From the NCBI RefSeq assembly GCF_002571385.2, contig NW_019217964.1, forward strand, positions 62,001-125,933: DNA of 63,933 nt. Reading direction: 5' to 3'. The position numbers were made by a program, and so were the translations under genes. Below, in pieces: positions 1,255 to 46,899 of this stretch. The stretch's first letter is position 1. Every line of letters starts with the position of its first letter. This DNA comes from Stylophora pistillata (lineage: Eukaryota). The notes beneath the pieces were generated by a model, which was not told the DNA's origin, searched no databases, and was given only the letters and a program-made list of their open reading frames with translations.

Positions 1255-4200
1255 ATATGCGGAGAAAATAAACTGATTGGAGGTGAGTGCGTTGGATTGG
1301 TCTTTTGTCACATTGTATCATAGAGAAAGTTTTTTCATATGATTCCTGCATCCTGACTGATTTTTTTTTTTTTTTTCAATTTTGGTCTGTTTTTTTTTTT
1401 CTTTTTTTTTTGGCTTGTTATTAATGAAGTCAGATTCTGAAGTGAGTGTGATTTAGGAAATGCTAGTTCTGAATATTTCTTTTTTTTTCAATATGCCTCA
1501 AGTGGCTGGATGGGATTGATATATTACAACCTCTAACAAAGTTTGTCCTTGAACAGGAGTTTTGAACCAAGTTCATAACTTAATTTGGCCACCGTTAAGA
1601 GTTTCTCAAGTGTACTTTTCGAGCGTTAGCCCCTCGTTTGACGAATTCACATTATCAACTCGGTTTATAAAACCAAATTATCTTGTAATACCCCCACCGA
1701 CGCAGCACCGCAGCTTTATTTAGAAACTTACCTCCTCAATTGATTTTATCCTTAAATAACTCAGCGTAATAAAAGCGTAATAACTCAGCGTAATAAAAGA
1801 ATATCTTCGTTAAAAGGGTCCGTCTCCAGGGTTTCACAGCTTCTGAGGCACACTTCTACCCAGTACTACTCGTTTATCGCCCCGTCCCAGTCCTCCGCTT
1901 TCCGGCGGTTCTTCCTGTACGTTGCTTAAGATTAAAATTTTATGCTTTTCGAATCTAACTTGCTATTTTGTATGTTGTATAATGTCAGTGCTCAGTGTGG
2001 AGACACCAGGACAACTGGACATTTGCTTTGCGACTCTGTTAAAGCAGCAAACAGAGGATATTCGCATCACCACTGAGGTGAAACCTTTCAGACCCTATGA
2101 GGATTTCGCTGGAACTGTTGCCGAGAGGTGTAATCGGAGCCTGGACGCTACTCATGTGGATAGCGTGACAAAAGAAGGATTGTATTACTTCCTGTGGTCT
2201 CGAGTCGAATACATGGGTATGTCCCTAATATATCAAGAATTATCATCCTTCTCTCTTCATCAGTCTGTTTGTGGCCAATTCAATATTTGGCCGGTCACGT
2301 GTCACGAAACGTACTTGAGGGCGTTCCAAGAAAATTCATATAACGCCAGTAGAGTGGCTTCTCTGTTCATGGTGTTTTGTCCATCTCTTTTATATTCTCT
2401 TCTATATTATCGTCCATGTACCTAAGCAACCAGCCAAGCGATGTACATGTTATCTTCGTCAGAAGAAGAATCAAGGCAGTCCACAACATGGTCTAAACTG
2501 TTTGAAAATATACTCAAATGTACTGAGAATGTTACGCAAATTTGTTTAAAAAATCCGAAAGTTTTTCCAGTTTTCGTACGTTAATATATGCAAAGCCGTT
2601 TTTTACGATAACTATTACATTGGACGTTTGTAATTAAACTGTAAAACAAAGACTGGTGAACTTTTATTCAGTGTTCCTCGGCGTGCTCCTGGTTTTCCCA
2701 CGTCATGTTCTCCCATAGGAAAATGATGCTCTCAGAGAAATGCGCATGCGCGTACTTCAACCCATGAGTCACACCACCAATTTCCTTCACAACAGTTTAC
2801 ATGTCATAGAAAAGGCTTTGTCCGTCGAATGTACAATCTTATGACTGTCTTTTTGTCTCTGAACTAGGCATAACTCAATTGGATCTTTGCAATACTTGGA
2901 CTGACGAAGCGATAGCTGCTATAAAAGCAAAGAAACTAGGGAATATCGTGGACTTATGGAAAGTGGTGGCAGAACGACAGGTAAGAAGCAGTCGTTAAAT
3001 GTTACAAAGTTAATTTCCAGTCGGTTTCACGAAAACCTCGAATTTAATTTGATGTCCAACGGTGGGCAGAACACTTTCATATAAACCTCGCCACCCCGAA
3101 TCTTGCAGAGCCTCAGTGGCAGAGAATCTCTCGAAGGGTCAAACGTCCATATCCGTTTGACTGGACTCAGATTTCCTCCACCTTCTATTTGTTTTTTTCT
3201 ATCAGTATGCTTGTATCCATGACTAAAAATCTTAATCTTTTAGGAAGAACTCCCTGACAACAAAACGACTCAAAGGGTGCTTCTTTTCGTCTTTGAGCTG
3301 AATCACCGTATGAACAGCACTGAAAAGGTGCAATGTTGCCTAAAAAACTTAATGAATTACGTCGACAGGTAGTAAGGTTTGAGCGCCTTCCCAATTTTTG
3401 GGTTTCAAAGTTCCATTCTTAGGTACTCAGGTTAAGATCTTAATTAGGAATGAAACTCATCCAAGATCACTCCTTATCATGGCAAGTTTCTTCCTGCCTT
3501 CTGTTCTGCGGAATGATGTAAATCAATATCTTGCAAAATCATCAAAGCGACTAAATAAAGTCGTGTTTTGGTTTCTTTCTCCGGGAGAGTTTTCCGGTTA
3601 CATGAAGTGCATGTTTTTGAACAACAACTCCCAGTCCGTACAGCAGGATACAGTCATGCATGTATAAAATTGAACCGTCATCCTGTCATTCATTAGATTA
3701 CAGTTTTGACGACCAATGTGGGAGTCATCATTAGAGTGATGTCAGCGATTGTTTGTGAGTCGGTCCCTTTTGAGTCGACCCTTCATCAAATGGTCCCTCG
3801 CCTTGAGATTTTGAAGACAATCAGGGAGTCAATTATTTCAGTTTACTTTACAATCGGAGCCGAATGCTTGCTGAACGGTATATATATCACGATTTCGTCG
3901 CATACATTATCTTCTTTAAAGTCTCTTTCTCCCATCCCGTTATTTAACAAATGGTAAACTCCACAGCATACACTATTGAGTTGTGGATGCACTTGAGAGG
4001 TTGCTAAGCACAAAAGAAGCGTGAGAGTCGCTCGAGGTGATAGGCGAGAGCGACTCTAGCTTCTTGAGTGCTTAACAAACCTCCCAAGTGCATCCATAAC
4101 TCAATAGTGTACGCTGTGGTGTTTACCAGTTGTTTTATAACATGACATTGATACATTGTAGCTAAAGAGTTCCCTTTTATTTAACAAATCTTTCGTGACC

Positions 4201-4688
4201 AGAAAAAAACAAGCATTTGCTCACGTCAGCAGCGTATACCCATGGGAAAATGGGGGACGCTAAATTGACCAATCAGAGCGCGCGCTTTGCTTTGGTTATG
4301 TTATAAAATTAGCTCGTCCTGTATGTGCTCAGTGTTGGAACAGACTTACTTAGACCGTTTTCTATTAGGGCGACTTCCCCGGCTGCCTTTTCTCCTTTCC
4401 CCCAGTGGAAAAACATAGGGACTAATCTCGTTTCCCCCCATGCTCCTGTTTTCTTTCAAGCCTCTCCCATAACCATAAAGTGTTAAGTCACCTCTAAATT
4501 TACGTTATCAAACTTAATTCCTACAGGTTTGGGTGATTGTGCGCATGAACAGTCTGAAGGACGCGGACGAGCTTTTAACATTCGATCTTCCGATCTTAAA
4601 GAAAATGGGCGCTCAAGTTTACACCAAGTGCAAGTCTATAAGGCCAGTCAGCCAATGGATCGAAGATCTTAAGAAACTGGTTTCTTAG
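1255..4688 (+). CDS. Tandem muconolactone-isomerase-like protein, paralog A (5'-partial). Exons 1255-1282, 1989-2216, 2868-2980, 4527-4688
   Basis: All introns GT-AG with consistent phases. Exon sizes 28/228/113/162 match paralogs B and C. Reads ICGENKLIGVLSVETPGQLD...EYMGITQLDLCNTWTDEAIAAIKAKKLGNIVDLWKVVAERQVWVIVRMNSLKDADELLTFDLPILKKMGAQVYTKCKSIRPVSQWIEDLKKLVS*. Exon 1 was not found in the window. Confidence 0.85.
1585..1735. repeat. Degenerate Penelope-like terminal repeat fragment
   Basis: Shares ttggccaccgt, tcgagcgttagccc and cccccaccgacgcagc blocks with the 22060-22180 repeat; another decayed copy lies at 33135-33300. Confidence 0.55.
3945..4306. mobile_element. Palindromic MITE-like repeat (inverted copy at 31314-31700; decayed copy ~27410-27570)
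   Basis: ~190-bp hairpin aacaaatggtaaac...gtttaccagttgtt plus an adjacent segment; a near-identical reverse-complement copy lies in the SID-c intron. Confidence 0.8.
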
Positions 4689-6669: not shown

Positions 6670-6830
6670 TCTGAGGCGGATCCAGGGGTGGTTCGGTAGA
6701 ACCCCCTAAATTATCCCTTAAAATGCTAGAAATCATGTTTCCGAAGACCTAATTTTCAAAATCTTCCGGGGGAGCATGCCCTCGGACAATTCTCCGAACC
6801 CCTCTTGACTAAATCCTGGATCCGCCCCAG
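6670..6830. mobile_element. Short MITE
   Basis: Terminal inverted repeats ggcggatccagg ... cctggatccgcc. Confidence 0.6.
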
Positions 6831-7250
6831 GGCCTCAATCAAAAAGGTAGCGAGAAAGGCCCAAAGGTATTCGTCGTTGTGAGCCGGGACCAATTTCTGT
6901 CTTTGATCACTGTCGTTTGAAAGTATTGCGATGAAGAGGGTGAAATATCGCAAAATGAGAAAAGTCATCAAATTATTAAATTCAAATTAATTATTATCAA
7001 ATTATTAGATTCTCGGCTGAAAGCCATTGTTGTTTATTAAAAGATAGTCCAATAAAAAAGGATGATTTCTGTTAAAATAAAGGAATGCAATATATATGCG
7101 AATTGTGAAAATACCGTAGTACAGGGAAAGGTGACTTGAGTTACACTTATAAATAGCGCCTGGTTAACACTTTCGTGACCCACCTAAATTACGGTAACAT
7201 GAAATAATTTATTTAACACCTTCTCACTTCATTCAGGGAGAATGTTTTCT

Positions 7251-7345: not shown

Positions 7346-10300
7346 CTTGATAATATGAGGCTTTGGGATTTAAAATTATATACACAATATAAACGGTACA
7401 ATATACAGTAAAAAACGGTTTTTGCAGTAGTTGGAAAATTGGGTAAAACGAGGTCAGGACATTCGATTTCTTACATGGCTTTAAAAATACGACGAAAGAT
7501 TTTCTTAATCGGATTTGCTGTAGCATTTCCTCGCAGATGCCTGTTCAGTGTTTCCATTTCCCCTTGACCTGACGTTTTGAGTGGTTAACTTGTGTTTCAT
7601 CCCGTACTTTGTCCGCAATCTCAGCCCATTTTTTAAACGCCAAGAAAAGGCTAGAATGGTGTCGTGGACTTAACATGTCCGATTCTCTAACAGCCCGCTC
7701 CGTTCCTATCCCTCCACAGAATGTAACTCCTCGAGTATTAAAAAGCTTGCAGTGCCACCTTAAATGTTTGGTCGTAACGTGATTATATGAAAGCTATTCA
7801 GTCCGTGGCTACGGGTGAGACAGTGACGAAAGAAATCTTGGCCTTTACTCCGATGACGACACATCACAGTCAAAAACATGCAAGTTATGTCACAAGCTCA
7901 TGTTCCTCTCCCCATTCCCTCCTTTGACGTCATCAAAGAATCAACTAAGAGGAATCCGCTTTTCTTTTAAGAAGGGCATTCAATACATTTCAATTCTTGA
8001 AAAAAAAACGGCCTTGGCTACATTGAAGAAGACGTGACAATCCTCTTTGATAATCACCAATTTGTTATACATTGTTCAAATAACCTGCTTATATTAGAAC
8101 CAGACATTTCTTAAGTGGCTAACGTTTACTTCACCGGCCGCAGTCAGATGTTTTTACATCTTGCCATAATTCAGCCATAAATCGCCAATATCATGTGAAG
8201 AATGCTCTGTATGTGGTCTCAAAACTTCGTCTTAAAATTGCGTTTATTAGATTCGCACATGGCGAAGAAAGATTAGAAATTTTACCGAGTAAATCTCATA
8301 AACCATTCGTAAGAAGCTTTTCGTAAAAGCCATTAATGAAGATATAAGATGCATGGCGTTCTCTCCTTGAACATTTTATCAACAACAACAGTGAACAATA
8401 CACCAATCCACCTCAGATCAATACAACTCATTATTGAAGTATTTATAGCTGCTATAACTGTCAGCCGAGAAAAAAACCCACGAACACACTAGACAATATT
8501 TTGTAACCTCCGATCAATGTTTTGAACCAACAACGGGTGAAAACGAAGCACAATACCGGATCTGTGGCCTGGCACACCCTCCAGTAAAACTAAAAAACGT
8601 GTTTTCGTCTTTACGAAAGAAAAATGAGCCACCTAACAATGAACGGAACTCGATAGTGAGAGCATAATTAAGTGATTACATTCGGCACCGATATACATCA
8701 GTCGTATTAAGTGTTGAAAACTTGTTAGAGTAAATTTGCGTGGTTAGTTAAATCAATAAGATTTATCAGTTGATCAACAACTCATTGCTGAGGTATTTCG
8801 TCTGTATAGGCCGTCCGTTTCAAACTTCCTTCTTGTGGGGAGCACGCCAGCTCGATACAAGAAGAAATCACATAATAATAACAGCGAGCCAAATGAATTT
8901 GGACAATGACTGAACTTATTTTGGCGGCCAGATATAATTCATCTGCCGGTTATAACCCAACATAATTCTGAGATTTTTTTTAATTTTCCCCTTTACAAGG
9001 AGCTAAACCTTAAGAGCTCTATTCCAAGGCTTAACGACTCAGTATGATATCGATCGACAATGAAGCCCAGTACTAAGCTTGTGTCAAAGTGGCCGGATCA
9101 AAAAACCATTAAGAAAATTAATGACTGGAACATGGATAATTATCTTAGGGCAGGGGAAGTGTAACAAAGAAACTAAAAAAAACCTTCTGTAAGATTGAGA
9201 ATGCCATCGAGTTCAACTTTTAGATGCTGAAGCCGTTAGCTCAACATGCAAATCTAAAAGGAAACTTGAAAGGTGTGACTCAAAGGTCTTCCTCTCCTCC
9301 GGCGGTCAAATTCCAGGTGTATCAACTTTCTGATGTGTGCAATCTAGACAATCTAGACTGACGAAAATAGCGCTAGTGACGTCTGGCTTTCTTTTCAATT
9401 TGTTAGCCATTAAAAGATAACGTAATTTAAAACAGATTTGAGTTAAAGATCCATCAAAGTAAACTTTCGCTAATCTGGATTTTTATTTTTAGTTAGAAAT
9501 TAGCTTTCAAAACAATTCGATTCAAACAATTTCAAGCTACCATGCCGTTTTAAAAGTGTGTCTATGTCTGCGTCACGTTGTGGGTGGTAACTGAAGATGC
9601 AATCTGTGGTTTAGGGAAAGTTCTTTTTTTTCTTACGAAATTTTCACAACTGTACAACTGTCTTTTGAAGTCTGAAAGCAATGGGTGAGTAGTAAATCGA
9701 AGACAAAAACAAAAACAAAAGAAAACAACGACTTCTAAGGGATTCAAAAGGGCGTGCGAAAACGCCTGACGAAAAAAAATATATTTTAAAAAAATTTGTA
9801 CTGACTAATGACCTTCTCTCCGTGACATAATTACTTGGACTTCACTCTTTGAGTCCCTCAGAGAACTTTGAATCGTACCTAGAATTTTCTTCTCGTAAAC
9901 CTTCAAAGGTTTTGCCGGTACACAAAATATTACTGGGGTTCTGAAAGAAAACTGATCACATTTTGGCAAGTAATGATATTTGGAGCTCATCACTGGAAAC
10001 TAAGCTGGCGGTGTGTGAACCCAGCTCTAATGCAATTTTATGAATGACTACCTGCACGCAAAAGGGAACTGAAGTACTCAAAAGAAAGCCACTTCTCGAT
10101 TTCTTTTATCAAAGGCTTGTTCTTGAAACAATCTTGGCTTTGCCACATCCTGACCGCTTGCTCAAAGTGGACGAGTTTAATATTTTAAATAGACGCGCCC
10201 AGTGATCTCATCAAAGAGATTCGAATTATTAATTGCCGCAGGAAACGGCATGAATATATTACTCATCGTTGTTTGCGAGTCACGCATCTCATGAAATTGT

Positions 10301-10601
10301 AATTTGAACTAACATGTTACGCGCTTTTGTTCTTGGTTCTACATTGTATTCACACGAGGATTTAAGGTCCCGACCGCAACTGTCATTAGTAAACTCCGGT
10401 TATCCAAGTGGGCGCCATACCGGAAACTATCACTACACGTGACGAAAGAGAAATGCTCATTACTAAAGTATTAGGTAAATATCTTTTACGTTATTGGAAT
10501 ACGGTCAGTTGGGGGTCAGTCATCGTTGAACGTACACCGTTCGTACTAGAATTCAAGGGGAAGAATTTCTTCGTAATCATTGTTATCAAGAAATCATCGC
10601 A

Positions 10602-11564
10602 ATGGATCACGCTGTAAATGATTCACAGCCTTGCCAGTTGTCTGATGGCCATATCAGTGGATTACTGTCCGTAAACATCTTATCAATGATTATTGGCACA
10701 ATTGGTAATTTATTGGTGATTGGAACAGTATTCACGAATGCCAGTTTACAGATCATTTCCAATTACTGGTTAGCAAGCATGGCTGTGGCTGATTTGATGG
10801 TAACGGCGCTCAGTCAACCGTTGTTTTCCACTTTCCTTGGTCTGCAGTTACGCGACGAATGCCACGAATTTGTTTCTCAGGCATTCCGTTTGATCGCCAA
10901 CATGTCGTGCTCCGCGTCTGTTCTTCATCTCTGCCTGATAAGCATTGATCGATGCCTAGTGATTCTGCGGCCCCATGATTTTCGAAGCTACCGCACCAAA
11001 AAACGATTCAAAATCGCTCTGGTTTTCTCGTGGACTTTGCCGGTGATCTATGGGATCTTACGTGTGACCGTGAGCAAGAAAGGCACTTCTTATTTCACAG
11101 TCGCAGCTGTTGGTATCTGTTATCTGATTATCATTTTGTGCTACAGTTTGATCATTTTTAAAGTCCGAAAACAAGGTTCGGCCACTCTCAAGCGGTTGCG
11201 TGGACAGTCACGTAGGAGTACACCTTCTGAACACATGGTTGAGCGTCGCGTGACAGTCACGATAGCCATAGTTGTCGTTATTTTCACAATTTGTTGGTTT
11301 CCTCTCCTTTACCTGCGCTCTGCTTTCGCAGAAGCAAATTTTGGCGCGGCTTATAACTGGGCGAGGACTCTGGCTTTAAGCAATTCGTCGATGAATCCTT
11401 GGATCTATTGCTTTCGTATCGCTGAGTTTCGTGACGCTTACAGAAGATTGATGAAATGTCAGTGGAAACCAAGCACAGTGTGTCGCGGTGGAACAGGAGA
11501 TCGAGAACAGAACGATTTAGACACAACAAAGTCTAGTGAGTTAGACAACCAAAATAGTGTTTGA
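10602..11564 (+). CDS. Intronless class A (rhodopsin-like) orphan GPCR-1, 320 aa
   Basis: Seven hydrophobic segments with GNLLV (TM1), SMAVADL (TM2), IDRC (DRY variant), CWFP (TM6) and NPWIY (TM7); N-terminal NDS sequon. Confidence 0.95.
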   Translation: MDHAVNDSQPCQLSDGHISGLLSVNILSMIIGTIGNLLVIGTVFTNASLQIISNYWLASMAVADLMVTALSQPLFSTFLGLQLRDECHEFVSQAFRLIANMSCSASVLHLCLISIDRCLVILRPHDFRSYRTKKRFKIALVFSWTLPVIYGILRVTVSKKGTSYFTVAAVGICYLIIILCYSLIIFKVRKQGSATLKRLRGQSRRSTPSEHMVERRVTVTIAIVVVIFTICWFPLLYLRSAFAEANFGAAYNWARTLALSNSSMNPWIYCFRIAEFRDAYRRLMKCQWKPSTVCRGGTGDREQNDLDTTKSSELDNQNSV

Positions 11565-30400: not shown

Positions 30401-30554
30401 TTCTTCATAGGCAGATACGTGCAGTGAACCTGAAGAAAATATTATTCGATTTCGAATTTAATGAGGCAGTAAAGAGAAAACAATCTTGGTTTACATGAAT
30501 CTTGTCAGCTTGACTGGTCAAAAACACTTTAGTTTAAACAGAATGAATATAATG

Positions 30555-31292
30555 CAGTAAGTGGTTTGAACCGGGGGGTAACATGCGAAGGTGTAGTCTG
30601 ATCGTTCGGGTGAGTGTAGTCCTGAGAAGGACTGTTGTCGGTGGTAGTGACTGACGTTTCGACAACCTGTGCGGAAGTCATCATCAGAGTCAAGTGAATG
30701 ATTGTTGTCAGTAGAATGTTCTTATTCCAGTTCGTGTGAAATGATCGGTTGGTTTTGCCGTGATGTTATTGGCTGTAAGACTCAAGTGACGTAAGTCGGT
30801 CGTGATTGGTCTGTTTCGATCTGTCGGTAAAGTTAGGTCGTTCTTTTTCGGTCGTTTGTGATGTTTATGTCGTGAATGAGTCGTTTGTATGGAGCGGGTA
30901 GTTGTTGACATCTGTTTAGGGGAGTCTGTTCTAAGTTAGTAAACCAGCTTTCCAGAGTCAGTCGTTGAAAATAGTCAGTGCTGTAGGTTAGGCATTGCGC
31001 AGAGTCCCAGTCAATGTTGTGGTTGGTAAGTCGATGGTGTTCAGCAATGTGATTGCTGACATCACCTTTCCTCGTCGCCCGTCTGTGTTCAGTCAGTCTT
31101 GTTGTGAGGTTTCTGCCAGTCTCACCGATGTAGGAGGCTTGGCAGTCGGAACAATTGATCTTATAAATCGTTCCCTGTCTGTTCCTCGGTTCGTCTTTGT
31201 CTTTAACGTTGGTTAGTAACTGACGTAGTGTGGTGATGGGTTTGTGGGCGACGCGGATATTGAAGGGTAGTAAGATGCGCGAGATGTTTTCN
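30555..31292 (-). mobile_element. Penelope-like element 3' end in SID-c intron
   Basis: Minus-strand translation GTIYKINCSDCQASYIGETGRNLTTRLTEHRR (GIY-YIG), followed by a 3' repeat containing a hammerhead; truncated at the N gap. Confidence 0.9.
30648..30692 (-). ncRNA. Minimal type I hammerhead ribozyme, canonical core
   Basis: UGACU-CUGAUGA-UGAC(uuccgcacagguu)GUC-GAAAC-GUC-AGUCA: stem I UGACU/AGUCA, stem II GAC/GUC, palindromic ACGU in place of stem III. Confidence 0.75.
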
Positions 31293-34256
31293 NNNNNNNN
31301 NNNNNNNNNNNNATTATAACATAACCAAAGTAAAGCGCGCGCTCTGATTGGTCAATTTAGCGTCCCCCATTTGCCCATGGGTGTACGCTGCTGACGTGAG
31401 CAAATGCAAAGACTATTTTTCCGCGCGCGCTTGTTTTTTCTGGTCGCGTAAGATTTGTTAAATAAAAGGGAACTCTTTAGCTACAATGTATCAATGTTAT
31501 GTTATAAAACAAATGGTAAACACCACAGCGTACACTATTGAGTTATGGATGCACTTGGGAGGTTTGCTAAGCACTCAAGAAGCTAGAGTCGCTCTCGGCT
31601 ATCGCCTCGAGCGACTCTTACGCTTCTTTCGTACTTAGCAACCTCCCGCGTGCATCCATAACTCAATAGTGGTGTTTACCCTGTGGTGTTTACCATTTGT
31701 CAAATTCAGTTTCTAATCGGGGTCTTCCATCGACGCTGTTGTCCTGACTGCTTATGATCCCTTATTTAAAGTTGAAGCTGACGAAGGTTTTTCTGCTACT
31801 TCTGGGAAAGGAAGAAGTTTGTTACCTCACCTTCAATGGACCATTCAGCTCTTTTGGCTCTCAAATACATCAGTTGATTTGCATCATTCGTCTTTACAAG
31901 ACAGTTGTGACTCAGGTTTCTTGAGGAAGGGAGTTCTCCACTGAATTTCAGTGGTTGAGCTGTTACGTTTTGACTAGTCTTCACCGCCATCATTTCCGCG
32001 AAAGTGCATTCTGCAGACAGTTTGGCATGGGTAGGAGACGCAAACAGAAGGAGGAAATTCAAGATTGAGAGCGTAAAAGCCGGGAGAAAAACCATCCTGA
32101 GGACCTCCATATGGACTATGGTGCCTTTGCTTACGCTTCCAAGGCTCTCAGCGAGTTGTTCCAAAAGCGATCGTTCGAACGCGATCGTTCGTACGTTTGT
32201 GTACGCCCCAAGTACTCCACTGCTTCCGAGAAACTGAGCTAAAGAATCAGAAACTCTAGAAGGTGGATTTGGGTACATTATATCATGATCTGCAAGCAGT
32301 TGTCTTTTGGTGAATGGTTCATGTTGGCAAACAAATGCTACAGGAAAATTTACAGCATTTCAGATGATTAATTCCATTTATGGTTTACGTCACAGAACTT
32401 TTAAGACTGTTGAGGCGAGATGTAACTGTTTTCGGTTCCTGGCGCGAAAAAAATGCAAGGCGTTCTACTCATACTTTTGATTTTCAAAACAGGATAACAG
32501 CACGATTCTGTCCATAATAAGGTCAAAAACCCTGAAGGGGGTCGTCTGAAGCCGGCCTTTGAAGTTTTATCTAGATTAGTCAGTCTGTTTGTCATGTGTT
32601 CTTTTCTCACGATACTATATATATCCATTACACTATCCCAAAGTCTAGAGATTCAACTTAATTTAAATTGAATGATATACGCTGATCTAACAGACCAAAG
32701 ACAATAACTGAATACAAGAACATAATTAATTTGAGGCCATTTCGCAGAGGCTTGTCACTTATCGAGCAAAGCTATGACAACAACTTTAATCTTGCTCGTG
32801 TAATGTTACGAATTACAAATGTTTGATTTGTTAACCTGAATTGCATTTATTAAGACGAAAATGAATAGGAAAAAAATTGCTATAAAGTACTTAGATCTAT
32901 CCTCTGGTTTGGGTTTTTCATCAGTGAGCAGAATTTTTTTAGGATTAATATTTTTGCGGGTTCTCTTTTCTCGGTCGAAGTTTACCAGCTTGATGCGTCC
33001 CTTCATTTCGTGAGCAATGCCAAGGCATTTGGCAAATGAATCATGAAAACAAGATACGTAGACTCTGCCTTTGAGTCCAGTGGAGAGAAATTTTCCAAAA
33101 GCTATTCCTATATGTAGCCTGGGTTGATGACGTAAATTGGCCACCGTACAGAGTTGCTAAAGCTGAAATTTTAAGAGTAATACCCCTTCCTCATTCGCTC
33201 TGTCGAAGAGGTAAAGTTCGAAACGTCAGCTAAAGTTAACCGATTAACGTCATCAGCTCAGTTAATAAAACAAAATTGTCTTGTAGTAACCCCCAAATGA
33301 CAGAGTAGGATAGTGTACAATTGAACAATGCATTTAAGACAAACCTGATCATTTCAACAGGAGCGAAACCGCTATCATTGAGAATAGTGCCCCTGAGGCT
33401 CTATGGGGGGGGGGGGAGGGGGCGCTTTTAGGAGATTCACGTGGCTTTGTTATTAAACTGAGTTCATGTATGAAACATTCTTCACACTACCATGACTTTC
33501 TTATACTGATTTCACGTTTGTACCTCAATGATACAAATGAAACTAGGAGCGAATGATAAAAACGTGTAGATAAGGTGCCTAATCAGTTTCATATTGCTAA
33601 AAAAAATTCCCTTCCTTTTTTTTTTTTTCTTTTCTTTGTTTTCTTTTGTGTTCGTCTCTTATCTGCTTTGTTTTGTTTTTGTTTTTCTAAGGAAGGGAGA
33701 GGTAGGCGGAGGCAAAGCGACATAAACTTTCATGTTTTAACAGGAGGTAAAGAGCTCGTGGTTTGTGAAATTTAACGATTGATTAAATTGAACCATGAAG
33801 TGACGCACATCAATGCACTTAGAGCTTTCTTCTGGCAAGTTCAGAAAACGAAAAAAAAAAAAAAAACAAATAAAGCACCAGTTGATTAGGATTAAAAAAA
33901 AAGAAAAAAAAGAAAAAAGAAACAGAAACCTTCAAGCTGACTAGTTAATAAAGCACTGGAAAGCAAAAATGTACGATATCTACTGGAAAGTAATTTTCAG
34001 CAACCCCTGTGACGTCACAGATGCAGCAGCTCTGTGCTAAAGCACGTTTCAGCATTTTCGCTTTCATTCGTTGCAGTTTAAACTCTTGATTGATTCTAAC
34101 ACAATTTCGCCCTGTATTGACGTAAATCAAAGGAACGGAAGACAAAATATTTCTTGTTACAATTCCTACGGTCCTACACGCCTTGCTTTGAGCTGTTATT
34201 ACAGTTGTTGAGGAACTTGAGCGAAGGCGTGTGGAAAGACAACTATCATTCGCGTC

Positions 34257-36888
34257 ATGAATCTTTCTTCGAATGAATTTCATTTTGATGATTGCCTTCT
34301 TCCAGTTTCTCACGTAATTGCGTTAATTCCAATTAACATTTTATCAAGTATCGTCGGAACCATCGGAAATTCTTTGGTGATCGCCACAGTTTATACCAAC
34401 AAGAGCTTACAGATTATTTCCAACTTCTGGTTGGCGAGTATGGCTGTGGCCGATTTGATGGTCACTGCCTTGGGTCAGCCACTGCTCATAGCATTCTGGG
34501 GGCTTCATGTGAACCACGAATGCAACGAGGTGGTGTCCGAAGCATTTCGTCTTGTGGGAAATATGTCGTGTTCAGCTTCAATTCTTCACTTGTGTTTTAT
34601 CAGTATCGATCGCTGTCTCCTTATCGTCCCACCAGTTCAAAGTAAAGCAATCCGAACTGTGAAGAGGTTTAAGTTAGCGTTGCTTATCGTTTGGATTTTT
34701 CCGGTTATTTATAGTCTTTTGCGATTAACAGTGAGCAAGAAAGCAACGTCCTATTTTACCGTCTTTGCCGCTGCCATATGTTACTCATCCTCGGAGACCC
34801 AGGGGCTGTGGGTCGATTTCAAGTTAGGACATGAAGAGCCCCTGGGGACATTGTCTTACAAGACTAGTTCCAAACGGTCGCAGTCGTTCTGCCATCTGAT
34901 TGGTGCCAGAAAATCTTTGTGTTTTTCTGCCCAATCAGAGAGAAGTGTGCTTTAGAGTCCTTTCGTGTGTTTTAACACGGACATATACTAGAAGCTCAGT
35001 TGCTCGCTATGGTTGTTTGGACCGTGCGACGGAGATTTGCTTGAGGTGAAAATTTTCAGTCTCAGCACACAATGTGAGAGAAATCGATCAGATTGTCCGA
35101 AATCTTACCGGAAATTATACTGAATACTTTCGCAGGTATCACTAGTACTAGAGAACGTGTTTTAAAGTTTGCGAGGTTTGTATACAACACGATGGTTGCA
35201 GTCATTGATATGTCGCTTTAGACGTTAAACGAGAGTTAAGCTTAAATCTTTCTAGATTTTTTGCATAATTTGCTGTGACTGAAACTTTGCCAATCCCGTA
35301 AAGTTATTTCGTCGCACGGGCCACGCAGGTATGTCGAACAACTGGTACTTGCGCAACTTTCTGTACGTGCCAAAATCTAATCTCATCTTCGCTTGAAAAA
35401 AAAAGAAAAGCTAAGCGTAGAAACTTTTGCTTATTAGATGTGGGTAGATGACCCTGTACAACTAAGCTGACATTTGCAATAAAGCAAACCCGCCCTTTCC
35501 GTCCAATATTTCTTGGTCTTTGGTTTTGTTTTTCCCATCGAAAACAGCATCGGATCGATTCCCAATGATCGAAGGTATTGAACTTGGTCTTCAACAATCG
35601 ACAGAAGAGGTGAGATGACAATGACCAAGGGACTAGAAGAGAATCCGTGGCCTTCCCAGCTCAAGAATTTCAACACTCTAGGCAGCAGTTAAAAGATTAA
35701 ACTCTTTCCAAACCCCTTCGGTAACTGCCCGAAAACATCTCTCCTTCCCTCGATGTTCTCGTTAATAAGTGTTTGTTCAGATTTTAATTAGCTAACCGGA
35801 AACACAGCTAAGCTTTCTCTTAGCACTTGCTGGAGGTCGTCCACGAACTTAACGTTTCCTGCAACCTTTGCGAACGACTTTACTACAAAGCGAAGATTAG
35901 ATTTTGGCGCGCACAGAAAGCAGAAAGCTTCGAAGGCGAAAGCGTGGCCCGTGCGACGAAATAACTTCACGGGATTGGCAAAGTTTCAGTCACAGCAAAT
36001 TATGCAAAAAGTCTAGAAAGATTTAAGCTTAAATCTCGTTTAACGTTTAAAGCGACACATCAATGACTGCAACCATCGTGTTGTATACAAACCTCGCAAA
36101 CTTTAAAACACGTTCTCTAGTACTAGTGATACCTGCGAAAGTATTCTGTATAATTTCCGGTCAGTTTTCGCGGACAATCTGATCGATTTCGCGTACACTG
36201 TGTGCTGAGACTGAAACTTTTCACCTCAAGCAAATCTCCGTCGCACGGTCCAAACAACCATAGCGAGCAACTGAGCTACTAGTATATGTCCGTGTTAAAA
36301 CACACGAAAGGACTCTAAAGTACACTTCACTCTGATTGGGCAGAAAAACACAAAAAGTTTCTGGCACCAATCAGATGACAGAACGACTGCGACCGTTTGG
36401 AACTAGTCTTGTAAGACAATGTCCCCAGGGGCTCTTCATGTCGTAACTTGAAATCGACCCACAGCTCCTGGGTCTCCGAGGATGTATGTTACTTGACCAT
36501 CATTTGCTGCTACATATTAATTATCATGAAGGTTTGGAATCGTGACAATGTTCGTAGTCACGCAAGACAGAGTGCCTCCCAATTGGTTGAACGTCGCGTG
36601 ACAGTCACGGTGGCTGTTGTTGTCGTGGTGTTCACAGTTTGTTGGATTCCAATAATGTACCTTCGCAGTGCCTATGCCCAGAGTAATGTTGGAGTAGTAT
36701 ACAACTGGGCGAGGACACTGGCTTTAAGCAATTCTGCAATGAATCCGTGGGTCTATTGCTTCCGTATGGAAGAATTCCTTGTTAATTACAAACGACTCCT
36801 GAAGTGTGGCTTTAGAAACAAGCGTGACGGAAGCACCATGAATGAACTTAATTTAGCGATAACAGTCAATTCAATCGTTTTAATGTAA
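34257..36888 (+). pseudogene. GPCR-2, paralog of GPCR-1, interrupted in TM5 by a transposon (307 aa if restored)
   Basis: 34257-34785 plus 36494-36888 join in frame (AICY-LTIICCY), aligning with GPCR-1 GICYLIIILCY; IDRC, CWIP and NPWVY are intact. Confidence 0.92.
34786..36484 (-). mobile_element. Non-autonomous DNA transposon, 1699 bp, ~540-bp TIRs, 9-bp TSD, RecQ-like helicase remnant (AcademH-like)
   Basis: TSD TATGTTACT at 34777-34785 and 36485-36493; CATCC...GGATG termini; arms 34786-~35326 and ~35942-36484; core reads (-) DVFGQLPKGFGKSLIF*...VIVISPLLSIVEDQV. Confidence 0.88.
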
Positions 36889-39261: not shown

Positions 39262-42200
39262 ATGTCGCTGTTATATTTCTTTCAAACAAGCCTCGAGTAC
39301 CATGGGATAACTACGAAAGAGCTTTATCAACTATGGTTTAAGCACGCTCAAGCTGCTTTTAAGATGTACGAACAAGGTATTATGAAATACGCCTTCAAGG
39401 TAGGAACAGACTACGATTTATAAACATAATACCAGTTGATACTCGCTTTACACGCCGATTATGCTATAGCACATTAAGCTTAAGGGATTAACTGAAAGAA
39501 ACTGCATTCTTGATATCTCAACATAAAGGATCTTATTTCATCAGGGTCTGTAGATGCTACTCTCGAAATATTCTCGTGACAAAAGAAGAAGTATTCTCAA
39601 TATAAACGGACACTGTTATGGAATACGTTTAAACTTGATCGTAGCAACATTTATGCCTATAAATCTTTGTTTGGGCCACAGTAAAATTGGATTTACATAT
39701 CTTATTTTAAAATTTCGTTACACCTGTATTGCCCAGACGATAAGCTATGAATCAGCGTGTGTCAGCAGACACAACCGGGCGATAAGAGACAATAGCAACC
39801 ATGAACCAAATATTCACCGCGAGATTACTCAGAAAAACTGAATTATAATTTTCAAGTATGTGTGGAATGTACCTTAAGCATCAAACAAGAGGGGCAGGTT
39901 CGAGCCTTTCTGCCTTTGTTTTTGGTAAGAATGGAAAAAATTGCCGCTGAATGTGTAGCTTCTTGACATATATGTCCATTGCTAAATTATGTATTATCAC
40001 TATTATTTATTATTTATATGAGACAACTTTGTGAGAATCATTTCGTGTCTGTATAAATGCCGAGGTCTCTGTTCCACTGAAAACAATTCGCGGGCTCAGA
40101 AGACTCTTATCTGCTCGCGAGGGAGCTTTTTAACCTTAGGGTGGGTATCAAAAAAATTCTAGAATGGAGAGATGAAGTAGTGACAATGAGAGGAAGCTCC
40201 TGCTACTGGCAGAAGCCATTTTGAAGAAAGCCTCGTGAATGTCTCTGTTCCGTACCACTTGCCATACTGCGGACTGCGAGACGCCAAAGTTTAGTGAATT
40301 TGTCAGATATCAATCTATCCCCGCGCTTCAAGTGACAATAGATAGATTAACATCTGAGCCACAACCCAAAAGTGTCGCGCAGGCACGAAGCAAAAAATTT
40401 TTCCGAAGGTGTTTTTTTTTTTTTTTGATTAACTGAAACTGGGTTACTTTCAACCATTCTCCGTTTCGCCACTGAGCTAAATGGACATGGCTATTTCATG
40501 TTTGTGAGGTTTCCAAGTATTTCATGTACGGAAAAGTTATTTTGAGAGCGGAAAGGTCAAGAACGTGGTTTGTAGCTTTGAGATTGCTCACGCACAACAT
40601 TATATGTGATAATTGACGACCAGTCACCAAACTTGTAGGGGCGAAGAGGGTACGTATACGCCATTTAATTTATGTAATTAGAGAAGAGCCACTTTGTCAA
40701 CTGATCAAGTTAAGGAACTGGTCATTATTTATCCCCGGAGGGGAGGGTCGAAGGATTTTAGATCTGTCATGATAAAATTTACCTGATTTCCCTCCCCCAC
40801 CAAGGCTCGGGTATATCCCCCCCGTTTGACAAGAGGTTTCACAAAGTGTCCTCCTTTTTAAAATTTACTTAAACGCACACGATTATGTAACACGTGAATT
40901 TCCAACCGAATTTCGAACCCATTTCGAACCGTCCTAGCGCAGTGCTTAATCTCGAACAAACGCGTTTTCATCGGCTACCCGCAAGTTCTTTGGCACACTG
41001 GAAGCATTTGCAAATTATTATCTTTTTTCGAGTTATAATGCGAAAAAAACAACGTACATGTCTTCAGAATCAAAGTTTCGACTCCCTATCAAAATAATCC
41101 CTTGTTTCCACCCCAATAGTGAATCGGAAAGTAGTTCTAATAGTGCTAAATGATGTCTCTAATAGCTTAGTTAGTTTTTCATTCATTTCCGTCTCTTCAC
41201 GTTATAGATAGCTGGAGAAAGAAAAGTTCTTGGAGGTAATAAGATCTTAATTAGATAAACGGTTTTCATGTCTTATATAACAAAGAAAAGGACCTGGATG
41301 CTCAATATTGTGTGACAATGCTATCCATCTGGAATTAGCGATGAATAATCGCAGCGAGGGGCTCATTAGTGTATATGGTGACGGGCCTCTCATATCTATC
41401 TCTCCATTCCTCACAGCTATTTCACCAGTAAATGTATTCTTTAATATGAATTGGAAAATTTCTTTTAGTTTTTCCCGGAGTTCGTAGCGTCACTGATTTT
41501 GTTCCCAAAAGAGTTTAAAAACGCCACCCAAACTGTGCGGAAAAGGGTTGACAAAGAAAACAACTCCCTCTCTCCCCTCTCTCCCCTCTCTCCCCTCTCT
41601 TGCCTATCTGGTCTCCCCTCTCTCCCCTCTCTCCCCTCACTCCCCTCTCTCCCCTCTCTCCCATTTCTCCCCTCTCTCTCCTCTCTCCCCTCTCTTGCCT
41701 ATCTGGTCTCCCTAGCTTGTTTACTTCCTGCCGAAGCCGAACATGATTAGCGAATGAAATGGTGAAAAAAGTCAGTTTGCTCTGAGAGCTTCTTACTTTA
41801 TTGCCGCATCTTCCATTCCTACATTCTGATGAAACAGCAATAAAAACGGAAGACAAGAACTGACTCTAACTTCATTCTTACGCCTTCTGTTTTTCATTTA
41901 GTGATGTCAGTGGAGTCACCCTCAGTACTGGACACGTGCTTTGTCGAGCTACCTCTTTACCAGGCCCTCGGAGATCAGTTGCACTCGACATTTACCCCGT
42001 TGAGACAATACGAAGGATTTGCGTCAGATGTGAGCGAGAGAGTTGGGAACGGAGAAAATTACGGGGATGAAAAGTCCATCTTAAAGAAGGGGCTCTTCTA
42101 CATTCTGACGTTTACTGTGGAATACGACCCTAGTAAGATATATGTGATATAGAGGACAGTTTTTGTTTTATCCTGAGTGTTGAAATTCTCTCTCTGTCGT

Positions 42201-43286
42201 GTGTACGAGGAGAACGAGTGAGGGATATAATCAATTCGAGATAAATCCGTACCACCAGCAGACTTGCAATGTTCTGTTTATTATATAGATATTGATGAGA
42301 TATATAAATCGAAGACGATTTGGAAACACGTTATGAGAGCGCCGAATGTAGAGATAAACTGTATTTAAACTCAGCTCGTTGGGTTGGTGAGAGGATTGCT
42401 GCAATGTCTGAAATGGGCAGGCAGATTTTGTTTCATAGTAGCGCGCATTTCAGTTATCTGGGTCACCTGTTTAGGTTCGAGCTACATTTAAGGCTTTATC
42501 TGAATCAGACAGATCCTCTTCATCAATTCTTCAATCCCTTCTTCATCTCATTTCATTTCATCCTTTAAAAGCCATGACACAACAAGACCTGTTTGCTGTC
42601 TGGGCTGAGGAAGCTAAAGAGGCTCTCAAGGCAAAAAAGTCTGGAATCATTCTAGACTTATGGAAAGTGGTAGCAGAACGTAAGGTACTAATCACTTTCA
42701 ACTAATATCACACTATGCGGGCGCCTGCATCTCGGTTCGGTCAGATAGACTTAGTATGCACTTAATCAAACGTCTTACCGAATCCATTATTTTCACTTGT
42801 GGTTGTTTGATAATGCCCCATGCTGTCTGCATAGCGCGAACAACCCATTCAGCCATGCAGTTTCATGATGGTTTTATCGGGTGTGTATATAGTGTCGGCT
42901 CCAGAAAACATCACAGTATTTGACTTCGGACACATACTGGCAGTATAATCACGCCCCCATAAACATTAAGGCCGCATTAGGTACATTTTACTTGCTGCTG
43001 TACTATTTATGTGCATAAGTATGGAACCATGTACCAATTCCCCTCTTTCCTTGTTAAATAACTCTGTTTAACGCACTTGGACAATCATCAAAATATCGTC
43101 AAATGTTGCATATGATGTGTGTTGCAGGTTATAGCCGTTGTCTGTGTGGATGATCCGACTGATGTTGACAGAATGTCACTGGACCTGCCAATCATGAAAA
43201 AGATGGGAAGCAAAGTCCGTATAGATTGCAAGTCGATACGGCCAGTAGAAGAATGGGCCGCAGATCTACAAAAGCTAGCAGAATAG
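39262..43286 (+). CDS. Tandem muconolactone-isomerase-like protein, paralog B, complete, 222 aa. Exons 39262-39399, 41208-41235, 41902-42132, 42572-42684, 43128-43286
   Basis: GT-AG introns; 669-nt open frame: MSLLYFFQTSLEYHGITTKELYQLWFKHAQAAFKMYEQGIMKYAFKIAGERKVLGVMSVESPSVLDTCFVELPLYQALGDQLHSTFTPLRQY...LFYILTFTVEYDPTMTQQDLFAVWAEEAKEALKAKKSGIILDLWKVVAERKVIAVVCVDDPTDVDRMSLDLPIMKKMGSKVRIDCKSIRPVEEWAADLQKLAE*. Two internal repeats resemble CatC. Confidence 0.88.
41564..41712. repeat. Pyrimidine 9-bp minisatellite (CTCTCCCCT)n in intron 2 of paralog B
   Basis: Direct tandem repeats with a duplicated tcttgcctatctggtctccc unit. Confidence 0.9.
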
Positions 43287-44343: not shown

Positions 44344-46899
44344 ATGAGCTTATTGTACTTCATAAAGTTTACCATTGAGTACAAACGAATACCACAAGAA
44401 CAGTTTATCAAAACTGGGCAGCAGAAGCAGAAGTTGCTCTAAAAGCAAAAGAAAAAGGAAAAATACTACAGATATGGAAAGTAAGAATATGTTTTTAGCC
44501 ACTGACCGGTTGCTATTTTTCAAAGATTCCCCAAAAGACCTTAAGTTTACAGTTGATTCGCCGTATTGATGTCAACTAATTTATTATAAGAGAGATAACT
44601 TAGACCTTCCAAAACCTTAGGTCTATACAAGTTTGGGGCAATTAAGTTTTATAGTCTCTGGAACGAGCAGCTTACAATGAATCGCTGGACATGAAAAACG
44701 CCTCTCTGTGCCAAGGAATTACAAAACTTTTGATGAAGAAAGTACTACTTGAACAATAAGTTAACAATAAGATCTGAATGTGTCCATCAAACCAAAATTA
44801 TGTAGGCGTAAGTCGTGTCATAAGCGTGAACCAAGTTTGATCAAACAATATCAGTCAGAACAAGCCATTGCACATCCTGACTTGTTCAATTGAGCACGTC
44901 AAAGAAGAGTTAGAGTGTCATTGGCAAAACCATGATCCGTAGATATCGGGCAGATATCGGTTTCCCTAGCTTCTCGGTTAAAAGAGACAGTTTAAGGTAT
45001 CAGTCTAGGGATATCAACTGATTCCCTAGCGATTAGCGTAACCATGATATTTCTATTCGCAAAAGAATGCGAAGCAAATTATAAAGATTTGTCTAAAAAA
45101 GTAATTCATGACATGGGTACATAACACTATATTTCATCTCTCCTTTTTGCCATTTGAAGTAAACAAAAGATTAAAATTTTGTAATCTCATAATGTAAGTG
45201 ACTGTTTCGTTTAATCCTTTCAGTTGGTTGGAGAGCGCAAAGTATTTTGTGGTAAGTGAAGAAGAGAAACTTCCTGAGGAAAGTTAATTTCAATTTAAAA
45301 TTTTAATGAATGAACGTAGTCGCGAAATTTTAATCTGTTCCCAGTTATGAAAGCAGAAAATCCCGATGAAATAGATAGGCTGTCATTTCATTTGCCAATG
45401 TTCAAGGAGATGGGTGATCAGGTGCATATGGAAGTTTCACCCCTCAGGCCTTACGCTGGACTAGCAACAGATATCTGTAAAAGAGTCAATAATGGAGATG
45501 AAACGGTGTTTGAAGACATACCTACTGTACCTAAAGCAGGACTTTTCTACTGGATAACGTTTATTATAGAATATCCAGGTAAGATTGCATGTCCATGACA
45601 TTAGTTAGCTCTTCGTAAACTGCAAAAATATTCTTTGTCTTTTTATGACTTCATCTCATTACACCGCTTAATTCAAGGTTGACTTCCGTCGTCAAAATAC
45701 TGTCTTCCTTCTAGGAAAACCGTAGGCACTTTTGTTTTCTAATCCAGCTGCCTTTATGCCGGCAAATGCTAAACCTTTTAATGGCCTACAAGAACTTAGC
45801 AGCTAGTTCTCTGTGGCTAACTAGCTGGTAGATTATCGGAGCGCTTTCTTAACAGAATCCTTCGGAGGTAGTTCATTAGGTGAAAGTATTTTCTGAGAGT
45901 TTTATATTTCTCTGGTTTTTATTTCATTGATGCAGGTAAGACGCAAGACGAGTTGTTGGCCTTTTGGTTACAGGAGGCCAAAGCTGCGTTAGGAGGAAAG
46001 AAAAGCGGAAAAGTGGTTGACCTGTGGAAAGTAGTTGGGGAAAGAAAGGTAGGCAAAGTTTCCATACAACCCCACACCTCATTATGCATCTAGTTCTTTC
46101 ATAAAAGAAAACGGCCAAAACAACAGATTACTTTTGAGACCAAGGCGTGTTTTGAAAATAGCAGGAGGTCCTAAGGAAATCAAAATTCCATGCGAATTTC
46201 AACTTCCTACGAAACACTCACAGGAAAAAGCGACATTACGGCTCGTTTCCAGTCTCCAGCCTTGTTTCATTGTCACTGTTCGAGGTCGATAGAGGGATAT
46301 AGTTCCCTGGTTGGTTCGTCGAAATAAAATTTGAATTAACTGGCCGCTAAATTGATTTGTTCATTCCAGCAAATATATTCGGATAAGACAGTAATGACAT
46401 TCGCACCCTTGATTCACTTATAATTGGCAAGTCTTTCTCCACAAATTGAGATTAACTTGGTTGTTTCTGCCAACGATCGATGTGATACTAGGGCTCTAAA
46501 GGGTCTTGCTAAAATGGTTAAAATTGTACGCTTAGTGTTCAGTTGAAAGATGCTTTTAGTGAATGACACTGGCTAGTATTACACATGTTAGTACTTCGAA
46601 TGCTCTACAAATGAGCTAAAGGAACCTCGTGGTCGGCTAGGCGGTTTAAGTGTTCAGTTTTTCCCAAGGGCCTTCGAGGTAAGACTATAATAGTCTGCGC
46701 ATGTCTCTTGAAACTTATGAACATTTTGGCGTTGCAGGTGTACATCCTGTTATGCGTGGAGAGTCCGTACGAGGTGGATCGTATTTCGTTTGACCTGCCT
46801 ATGATGAAGCAAATGGGAGACTGTATACACATGGAAGTCAAGTCCGTCAGGCCTTATGAAGCCTTCCATGATGACCTGAAGAAAATGGTGGCTAGATAA
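44344..46899 (+). CDS. Tandem muconolactone-isomerase-like protein, paralog C. Exons 44344-44480, 45224-45251, 45345-45578, 45936-46048, 46738-46899; 1-nt deletion in exon 1
   Basis: MSLLYFIKFTIEYKRIPQE/[frameshift]VYQNWAAEAEVALKAKEKGKILQIWK|LVGERKVFCV...; exon 1 is 137 nt versus 138 nt in B; the remaining exons are open with canonical splice sites. Confidence 0.82.

What the first reader, a model, noticed from the sequence alone, without database searches (positions are those of the whole stretch)
1255..46899. Nested receptor-transporter-enzyme neighbourhood: MIase, GPCR, SID-1 x3, GPCR, MIase x2
Seen: three unrelated families, each multi-copy, are interleaved in mirror-like order over 46 kb with constant strand per family (MIase +, GPCR +, SID -). 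One simple tandem duplication does not produce this order. Inference (speculative): a co-maintained module for sensing (GPCR), membrane uptake or lipid hydrolysis (SID-1/ChUP family) and chemical conversion (isomerase-like), perhaps at the host-symbiont or host-microbe interface.
Basis: inference. Interest (0 to 1): 0.7.

Follow-up and report, generated by a model that had tools for sequence, protein, structure and literature searches.

The report
Old coral gene block, half broken
Three unrelated gene families sit nested together in this stony coral, in a block that other stony corals share; the nesting likely grew from separate local duplications rather than from a working three-part module, four of the eight copies are broken in this assembly, and the isomerase-like gene likely came from marine bacteria.

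Summary
The order and strands are real: MIase-like(+), GPCR(+), SID-1-like x3(-), GPCR(+), MIase-like x2(+). Corrections: the MIase array has five copies, two upstream of the window. Four of the eight genes are broken here: SID copy 1 is a pseudogene, SID copy 3 has two frameshifts, GPCR2 is split by a 1.7-kb TIR transposon (an intact 99%-identical allele exists elsewhere), and MIase copy 3 has a 1-bp deletion. Linkage is old: MIase and GPCR share a scaffold in 8 of 9 named corals, and a SID orthologue is the next accession after GPCR1 in Desmophyllum. The mirror, however, is not one event. The GPCR pair is pan-scleractinian, the SID triplet is young and mosaic, SID is inverted or decayed in relatives, and two RNA samples show no joint expression change. 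Best reading: ordinary coral microsynteny plus birth-and-death duplication (0.7). A functional module is not excluded because no background-synteny control or cell-type data could be run. Side finding: the 'MIase' is not muconolactone isomerase proper but a spliced two-domain protein up to 59% identical to marine bacterial proteins.

The parts
1255..4688 (+). MIase-like A1, exons 2-5 (1255-1282, 1989-2216, 2868-2980, 4527-4688); exon 1 at G000:C181:61337-61483; 225 aa, open frame
   Evidence: Model. Last intron seen as a GT..AG joint in X24 reads and an X11 contig.
10122..10523 (+). Conserved non-coding stretch upstream of GPCR B1 (5' UTR or regulatory; role inferred)
   Evidence: 74% identity over 179 nt (10347-10523) to locus L042 of another coral; weaker tblastx-level similarity at 10122-10202.
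10602..11564 (+). GPCR B1: intronless orphan class A receptor, 320 aa, intact and transcribed
   Evidence: PF00001 E 2.4e-33. Stranded RNA depth 5-39 in X23 and X24.
14100..17045 (-). SID-1-like C1: pseudogene (frameshifts and stops in both exons, internal deletion, a stop inside the first metal-site motif, 3' part with the HxxxH motif missing)
   Evidence: Long X7 contigs agree with the assembly over much of it.
18537..21979 (-). SID-1-like C2: two exons (21979-21712, 20932-18537), about 888 aa, the only intact copy; SxxxH..D and HxxxH motifs present; transcribed
   Evidence: PF13965 E 4.5e-31; motifs; exon borders; RNA on the minus strand.
27947..32095 (-). SID-1-like C3: two exons; two frameshifts, both in homopolymer runs (near 29355 and 28870); motifs otherwise kept; GIY-YIG retroelement remnant in the intron
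   Evidence: Not checked against reads.
34257..36888 (+). GPCR B2: 307 codons, interrupted after codon 176 in this haplotype
   Evidence: P0147 is 99% identical over 296 aa and runs unbroken across the site.
34786..36484 (.). Non-autonomous DNA transposon, 1699 bp, with long terminal inverted repeats and a 9-bp target-site duplication (Mutator/Foldback-like; class inferred from the TSD and TIR)
   Evidence: TIRs 96-97% alike; TSD; 9 other full-length copies at 88-92% among 40 places scored of 768 candidates.
39262..43286 (+). MIase-like A2: five exons, 222 aa, intact
   Evidence: Model is identical to P0150 = XP_022792845, Stylophora pistillata.
44344..46899 (+). MIase-like A3: five exons, 1-bp deletion in exon 1 near 44412; otherwise 214 of 224 residues identical to the Pocillopora damicornis orthologue
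   Evidence: NCBI record P0194 and Logan records P0001 and P0195 are 168-aa forms lacking the N-terminus.
57719..58003 (-). Exon of MED17, the flanking gene (start codon at 60377)
   Evidence: E 1e-10 to human MED17. A Pfam Med17 genome search found nothing and was uninformative.

Best explanation
The three families are linked in this and other stony corals, and the nesting is likely an ancestral gene block that was reshaped by separate local duplications and losses, with no joint function needed. Steps: (1) shown: MIase-like gene, GPCR pair and a SID-1-like gene share scaffolds in robust and (inferred) complex corals. (2) Shown by trees: the B1/B2 split predates the robust/complex split, the A1/A2/upstream copies form their own clade, and the three SIDs arose after the split from Desmophyllum. 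(3) Inferred: any array that grows between two members of an older array gives a same-strand X-Y-Y-X 'mirror'. (4) Shown in this assembly: surplus copies decay by frameshift, deletion and transposon insertion; inferred: partial gene conversion among the SIDs. (5) Inferred: the block persists because coral gene order changes slowly. Each intact gene would then work separately: B1 as an orphan class A receptor, C2 as a likely zinc-dependent membrane lipid hydrolase or transporter of the SID-1/CREST type, A1/A2 as likely small-molecule isomerase/lyase or ligand-binding proteins.
For: GPCR tree: B1 clade (49 rows, SH-aLRT 97, includes Montipora and a Porites cluster) is separate from the B2 clade, which includes Porites. 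Synonymous sites are saturated for B1-B2 and all A pairs, but dS is 0.34-1.15 among the SIDs and differs between gene halves: C2-C3 0.37 in the 5' part, 1.15 in the 3' part; C1-C2 0.89 and 0.34. Window SIDs form a 6-row clade (100) with P0501, P0211 and P0479, with Desmophyllum outside. Porites harrisoni's two MIase copies group with other Porites copies (99), an independent duplication. One contig of 1,608,154 bp carries four B1-type paralogues. Four of eight genes are broken. In L042 and L037 the SID piece after B1 lies on the same strand as B1, opposite to the window, and in L037 it holds a stop. Six other intron-poor SID ORFs (C23 x3, C19 x2, C311) have no MIase or B-type GPCR hit in 150 kb of fetched flanks. 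RNA depth X23 vs X24: A1 bins 0.76/0.44 vs 7.7/5.9, B1 5.4/38.5 vs 8.7/33.6, C2 10.5/2.5/1.4/1.3 vs 22.4/2.7/2.4/2.1.
Against: The linkage is old and tight: MIase and GPCR share a scaffold in 8 of 9 named species; B1, SID, A2, A3 keep their order in Desmophyllum accessions; exactly two gene models lie between B1 and B2 in both P. damicornis and Oculina. All MIase-like copies found in this genome lie at this one locus (18 of 18 and 2 of 2 matches). At least one copy of each family is intact and transcribed in the same samples. The B2 break is an allele, not a fixed loss (P0147), and the C3 and A3 breaks were not checked on reads. The background rate of microsynteny was not measured. The expression comparison is two bulk samples from one study at about 2% of reads.
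Confidence: 0.7

Rival explanations
1. A selected functional cluster: a bacteria-derived enzyme makes or converts a small molecule, the SID-1-like protein hydrolyses or moves a lipid or RNA cargo, and the GPCR pair senses the product; linkage is kept for co-regulation.
For: Linkage across robust and complex corals; one intact, transcribed copy per family; C2 keeps its metal-site motifs; the MIase-like family is found only here in this genome.
Against: No shared substrate can be named. A1 varies about tenfold while B1 is flat. SID is inverted or decayed in L042 and L037. SID paralogues elsewhere lack these neighbours. Bacterial relatives of the MIase-like domain sit mostly next to a glyoxalase/VOC gene (44 of 73 loci), which has no counterpart here. 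Desmophyllum keeps the block without photosymbionts (recalled).
Confidence: 0.13
2. Regulatory-block model: the GPCR pair's enhancers lie in or between neighbouring genes, so breaks inside the block are selected against and MIase and SID ride along as bystanders.
For: Conserved non-coding sequence upstream of B1 in L042 (74% over 179 nt) and a similar A1-to-B1 distance, about 7.4 kb vs 5.9 kb. The A-B frame appears steadier than the SID between the GPCRs.
Against: The conserved pieces lie within 0.5 kb of B1 and may be promoter or UTR; none was found inside MIase or SID genes in L042 (one comparison).
Confidence: 0.12
3. Assembly artefact: haplotypes placed in tandem or misjoined contigs made the pattern.
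For: Both C3 frameshifts lie in homopolymer runs; there are small N gaps in the window.
Against: Copies are 34-62% (A, B) and 53-80% (C) alike in protein, far from allelic. X7 contigs of up to 7.6 kb match the assembly without differences from B1 into C1. The order recurs in other species.
Confidence: 0.03

Closest known systems
Tandemly duplicated gene arrays and conserved synteny in coral genomes (PMC10236652, title and start of abstract seen; PMC6214176, listing and start of abstract seen)
   Same: Local arrays of receptors and other genes that expand independently in each lineage inside a conserved block.
   Different: Here three arrays are nested. Whether this block is kept more than the background was not measured.
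Muconolactone delta-isomerase CatC (1MLI) and 5-chloromuconolactone dehalogenase ClcF (3ZNJ); PF02426, TIGR03221
   Same: PF02426 E 2.5e-24; the fold aligns at Z 11.9, rmsd 2.9 over 93 residues; the Glu at ClcF position 27 is kept in domain 2 of all five copies and in domain 1 of A3.
   Different: Two fused domains, four introns; 43.6-49.1 bits against a TIGR03221 cut-off of 130.6; the C-terminal His-Pro motif (recalled as catalytic) appears replaced by an R-x-Y type motif; much closer (35-59%) to an unstudied single-domain family of marine Alphaproteobacteria and cyanobacteria.
SID-1/SIDT1/SIDT2 (ChUP family, CREST superfamily; PMC10272179, PMC11137008, PMC13562381: titles and starts of abstracts seen)
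   Same: PF13965; signal peptide, large luminal part and membrane domain with SxxxH, D and HxxxH motifs in C2.
   Different: Two-exon, divergent paralogues; the intron-rich gene at G000:C7 is the likelier SIDT orthologue (inferred); at least nine intron-poor copies on four scaffolds; activity untested.
Ovorubin subunits of the apple snail (PDB 9UAJ)
   Same: Best structural match to the predicted A2 model: Z 17.0, rmsd 3.0, 181 residues aligned; two ferredoxin-like domains.
   Different: 9% identity; a shared fold shows no function. Ovorubin is an egg carotenoprotein (recalled).
Biosynthetic or metabolic gene clusters in animals, such as coral terpene clusters (recalled)
   Same: Non-homologous genes linked across species.
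   Different: No pathway logic, no co-expression shown, and receptors make up a third of the families.

Membership tests
Functional gene cluster of non-homologous genes | Linkage kept in related species | tested here: met
   MIase + GPCR on one scaffold in 8 of 9 named species (Porites evermanni is the miss, on three short scaffolds); SID with a B-type GPCR in 4 of 10 SID clusters looked up, 4 of the 6 that had a contig over 50 kb. Based on accession order and equal scaffold lengths, not on coordinates.
Functional gene cluster of non-homologous genes | Linkage exceeds background microsynteny | not testable with these tools
   No other coral genome could be searched (no relatives held).
Functional gene cluster of non-homologous genes | Co-expression in the same cells or conditions | tested here: inconclusive
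   Two bulk samples, left half only: A1 differs about tenfold, B1 about onefold, C2 one- to twofold. Single-cell tables could not be read.
Functional gene cluster of non-homologous genes | Members intact and arrangement stable | tested here: not met
   4 of 8 broken in this assembly (one is allelic); SID inverted in L042 and L037, with a stop in L037.
Functional gene cluster of non-homologous genes | Shared pathway or substrate | not testable with these tools
   No ligand or substrate is known for any of the three.
Muconolactone delta-isomerase (TIGR03221 equivalog) | Score above the curated cut-off (130.6 bits) | tested here: not met
   43.6 (A2) and 49.1 (P0002) bits.
MIase fold family (PF02426) | Pfam gathering score and ferredoxin-like fold | tested here: met
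   85.7 bits vs 26.7 for P0002, 212/224 identical to A3; model pLDDT 90.7, pTM 0.87; Z 11.9 to ClcF.
Muconolactone delta-isomerase / ClcF | Active-site Glu27 (role recalled; 3ZO7 carries Ala at this position) | tested here: met
   Aligned Glu in domain 2 of all copies and in A3 domain 1; A2 domain 1 has His, and A1 domain 1 aligns Ile; 66 of 68 bacterial relatives have Glu.
Muconolactone delta-isomerase / ClcF | C-terminal His87-Pro motif (recalled) | tested here: inconclusive
   The printed alignments stop at residue 78; by extension the position holds Tyr in most coral domains and in 62 of 68 bacterial relatives.
SID-1/ChUP (CREST superfamily) | PF13965 match and SxxxH, D, HxxxH metal-site motifs (motif definition recalled) | tested here: met
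   C2 and C3 carry all of them; C1 has a stop in the first motif and lacks the last.
SID-1/ChUP (CREST superfamily) | Lipid hydrolase or dsRNA/cholesterol transport activity | not testable with these tools
   Needs an assay.
Class A GPCR (PF00001) | 7TM profile match with DRY-like and NPxxY motifs | tested here: met
   E 2.4e-33; DRC and NPWIY in B1. Database names such as histamine, 5-HT or melanocortin receptor are automatic and disagree; ligand unknown.

The most novel reading that the evidence does not exclude
Stony corals keep a selected three-family cluster built around an enzyme taken from marine bacteria: a spliced two-domain MIase-like protein, a coral-specific intron-poor SID-1-like hydrolase and a dedicated GPCR pair that together make, move and sense one small molecule at the coral-microbe interface. 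The weaker half of this case, a horizontally acquired MIase-like family in cnidarians, is more likely (about 0.6) but of lower interest (about 0.4).
Probability: 0.12. Interest if true: 0.7.

Novelty: new member of a known kind. Interest (0 to 1): 0.3.

Why it matters
As read here it is a clear example of how nested, same-strand gene order arises in coral genomes without selection for clustering, and a warning that such patterns can be half pseudogene. Two leads remain. First, corals and a jellyfish-type record carry an intron-containing MIase-like family very close to an unstudied marine bacterial protein, for which three paper searches listed nothing relevant; its substrate is open and it is easy to express. 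Second, this coral has at least nine intron-poor SID-1-like genes, which matters for dsRNA uptake and lipid handling in corals. If the cluster proved co-regulated, it would be a rare receptor-transporter-enzyme cluster in an animal.

Tried and rejected
Recent insertion of SID between the GPCRs (my first idea): rejected, because the Desmophyllum SID orthologue is the accession next to B1 and orthologues share contigs with B-type GPCRs in inferred complex corals. A single inverted duplication: rejected, strands are not flipped and ages differ. B2 as a fixed pseudogene: rejected by P0147; its long end branch (0.19 vs 0.036 for B1) may still mean relaxed selection. The element as an intron: its ends carry a TSD and TIRs and read-through stops at codon 232; splicing out was not tested. 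The metagenome scan gave 59 loci, 26 of B1/B2 type, mostly too short: of 5 B1-type loci with 2.5 kb or more downstream, 2 had SID exon-1 pieces and none had a SID 3' end; L055 had none in 7.9 kb; L056 had none in 4.5 kb upstream of B2. Pfam on single MIase exons mostly missed. The Pfam Med17 genome search was uninformative. The Atlas gave only sub-0.9 leads to bacterial two-domain MIase clusters and nothing for P0002. The careful GPCR tree did not finish, so the quick tree is used; all other trees are quick or FastTree, and no AU test was run. My A3 model had a wrong exon border, so its branch length and identities there are invalid; still had ten wrong residues; one search is correct. The domain tree has no canonical CatC outgroup and used half of the bacterial rows; it does not prove transfer. 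Paper searches listed nothing on this locus. Look-ups of earlier findings 77, 78, 86 and 87 were empty.
Full report
What is there. The window is G000:C181:62001-125933 of a 398-Mb genome. My model of gene A2 is identical to P0150, which NCBI names as Stylophora pistillata XP_022792845, so this is a pocilloporid stony coral. A is a five-exon gene with two PF02426 domains, B an intronless class A GPCR, and C a two-exon SID-1-like gene. Two more A copies lie upstream of the window, the outer one frameshifted. All 18 matches of a 224-aa A query and both PF02426 matches in the genome fall at this locus (such searches give lower bounds).

Half of the copies are broken. C1 has stops and frameshifts in both exons, a deletion, a stop in the first metal-site motif and no C-terminal part. 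C3 has two frameshifts in homopolymer runs. B2 is interrupted by a 1699-bp element with 96-97% alike terminal inverted repeats and a 9-bp target-site duplication; nine other full-length copies at 88-92% were among the 40 places scored of 768 candidates. An unnamed protein, P0147, is 99% identical to B2 and runs across the site, so an intact allele exists. A3 lacks one base in exon 1 but is otherwise 214/224 identical to its Pocillopora orthologue. One NCBI and two Logan records hold the same 168-aa shortened form, which suggests, but does not show, that the break is real.

The linkage is old. Pocillopora damicornis: MIase pdam_00014236, B2 14237, B1 14240. Oculina patagonica: B1 ACROYT_G042586, B2 042589, MIase 042590. 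Desmophyllum pertusum: B1 KAJ7365360, SID KAJ7365361, A2 KAJ7365368, A3 KAJ7365369. Porites lobata: B2 CAH3112032, MIase CAH3112041. P. meandrina, P. verrucosa, Orbicella and Porites lutea have both families on scaffolds of equal length; Porites evermanni has them on three different short scaffolds. That is 8 of 9 named species. Of 10 SID clusters looked up, 4 share a contig length with a B-type GPCR (Desmophyllum and contigs of 1,074,160, 1,608,154 and 2,432,714 bp); 2 more had long contigs without a listed GPCR and 4 had only short contigs. The GPCRs on the last two contigs group with Montipora and Porites, so they are inferred to be complex corals. This evidence rests on accession order and equal lengths, not coordinates, and the models between B1 and B2 in Pocillopora and Oculina were not identified. 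Direct DNA: metagenome contig L042 shows the A1 last exon, B1 and a SID exon 1 in that order, but with SID on the same strand as B1; L037 shows a SID exon-1 piece with a stop, also on that strand. A MIase copy on the left of B1 is shown only for the window and L042.

The mirror is not one event. B1 and B2 head separate clades that each include complex corals, and their synonymous sites are saturated, as are those of all A pairs. A1, A2 and the two upstream copies form a clade (98) apart from A3; Porites duplicated its A3-type gene independently. The three SIDs are younger: dS 0.34-1.15, mosaic along the gene, in a clade (100) that excludes Desmophyllum; with other corals' copies they form a 15-row group (97) apart from this genome's six other intron-poor SIDs on C23, C19 and C311. 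Those six have no MIase or B-type GPCR hit in the 150 kb of flanks fetched, nor has the intron-rich SID on C7 in 30 kb. An array that grows between two members of an older array gives a same-strand mirror by itself (inference). The deeper order of events cannot be resolved.

Expression. In two stranded RNA runs of one study (about 2% of reads), B1 and C2 are transcribed on their own strands, C1 faintly, and A1 clearly in X24 only. A1 differs about tenfold between the runs, B1 hardly, C2 one- to twofold. Two samples give no statistic, but they show no joint change.

What the parts likely do. C2 keeps the SxxxH, D and HxxxH motifs. Human SIDT1/2 are reported as lipid hydrolases and putative RNA transporters (PMC10272179, PMC11137008; titles and starts of abstracts), so C2 is likely a zinc-dependent membrane hydrolase or transporter. 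B1 is an orphan; its automatic names disagree. The A protein fails the muconolactone isomerase equivalog (43.6-49.1 vs 130.6 bits) but has the fold (pLDDT 90.7; Z 11.9 to ClcF; best match ovorubin, Z 17.0) and keeps the Glu27 equivalent in domain 2. A scan of prokaryote genomes returned 73 loci, mostly marine Rhodobacterales, other Alphaproteobacteria and cyanobacteria, with a single-domain protein of about 104 aa. Window domains are 35-59% identical to their best match among 68 such proteins. 44 of the 73 loci have a glyoxalase/VOC gene beside it, 8 a GMC oxidoreductase, and some carry a TAT signal. In an unrooted tree the animal domains lie among these bacterial rows. A EukProt record (P0010; its identifier style suggests a jellyfish, recalled) has the two-domain form. 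Transfer from marine bacteria into an early cnidarian is therefore likely but unproven, because other eukaryotes were not surveyed. Searches listed no paper on it; UniRef already labels the proteins 'Muconolactone isomerase domain-containing'.

Verdict. The linkage survives in relatives, but slow change of gene order and frequent tandem duplication are the expected background in corals (PMC10236652, title and start of abstract; extent of synteny recalled), and nothing here points to a joint function. The missing background control and cell-type data leave the module reading at about 0.13. Interest 0.3, carried mainly by the bacterial-like enzyme family.

Noticed in passing
window A1-A3; L092-L164: The coral MIase-like domains are up to 59% identical to an unstudied 104-aa protein of marine Rhodobacterales and Nostocales that is usually next to a glyoxalase/VOC gene and sometimes TAT-exported; likely horizontal origin.
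   Followed up: partly
model of A2 (P0150): The best structural match is apple-snail ovorubin (9UAJ, Z 17.0, 9% identity), hinting that ovorubin subunits and this family share a two-domain ferredoxin-like scaffold; ligand binding rather than catalysis is possible.
   Followed up: no
G000:C23:397000-438000, C19:20600-40900, C311:299700-302300, C7:1558000-1568000: At least six more intron-poor SID-1-like ORFs plus fragments, and one intron-rich SID gene: a coral expansion, possibly from a retrocopy.
   Followed up: partly
window 34786-36484: A multi-copy 1.7-kb TIR element family with a 9-bp TSD; this insertion appears polymorphic.
   Followed up: partly
window 1-758, 3939-4306, 31314-31671, 51841-52619: Other palindromic or MITE-like repeats; the 3939-4306 family is very abundant in DNA and RNA runs.
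   Followed up: no
window 22900-24000, 30830-31350, 47650-49350, 54500-54850, 62400-63900: Decayed retroelement remnants: GIY-YIG/Penelope-like (PF01541 at 22927-23463), RT-bearing LINE-like (PF00078 at 48383-48673), and an LTR-type-looking piece at the window's end (label from inspection only).
   Followed up: no
A2 domain 1 and A1 domain 1: The first domain has lost the conserved Glu and diverges fast while the second keeps it; the His in A2 domain 1 is kept in Pocillopora, Oculina and Desmophyllum, suggesting a division of labour between domains and paralogues.
   Followed up: partly
G000:C181:24760-29747 and 129968-133147: Flanks hold two tandem class I/II aminotransferase-like ORFs upstream (one confirmed by PF00155) and an SH3 plus DC-STAMP gene downstream.
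   Followed up: no
ENA contig of 1,608,154 bp (P0045, P0054, P0063, P0066): Four B1-type GPCR paralogues on one contig of another coral: an independent expansion at the same locus.
   Followed up: no
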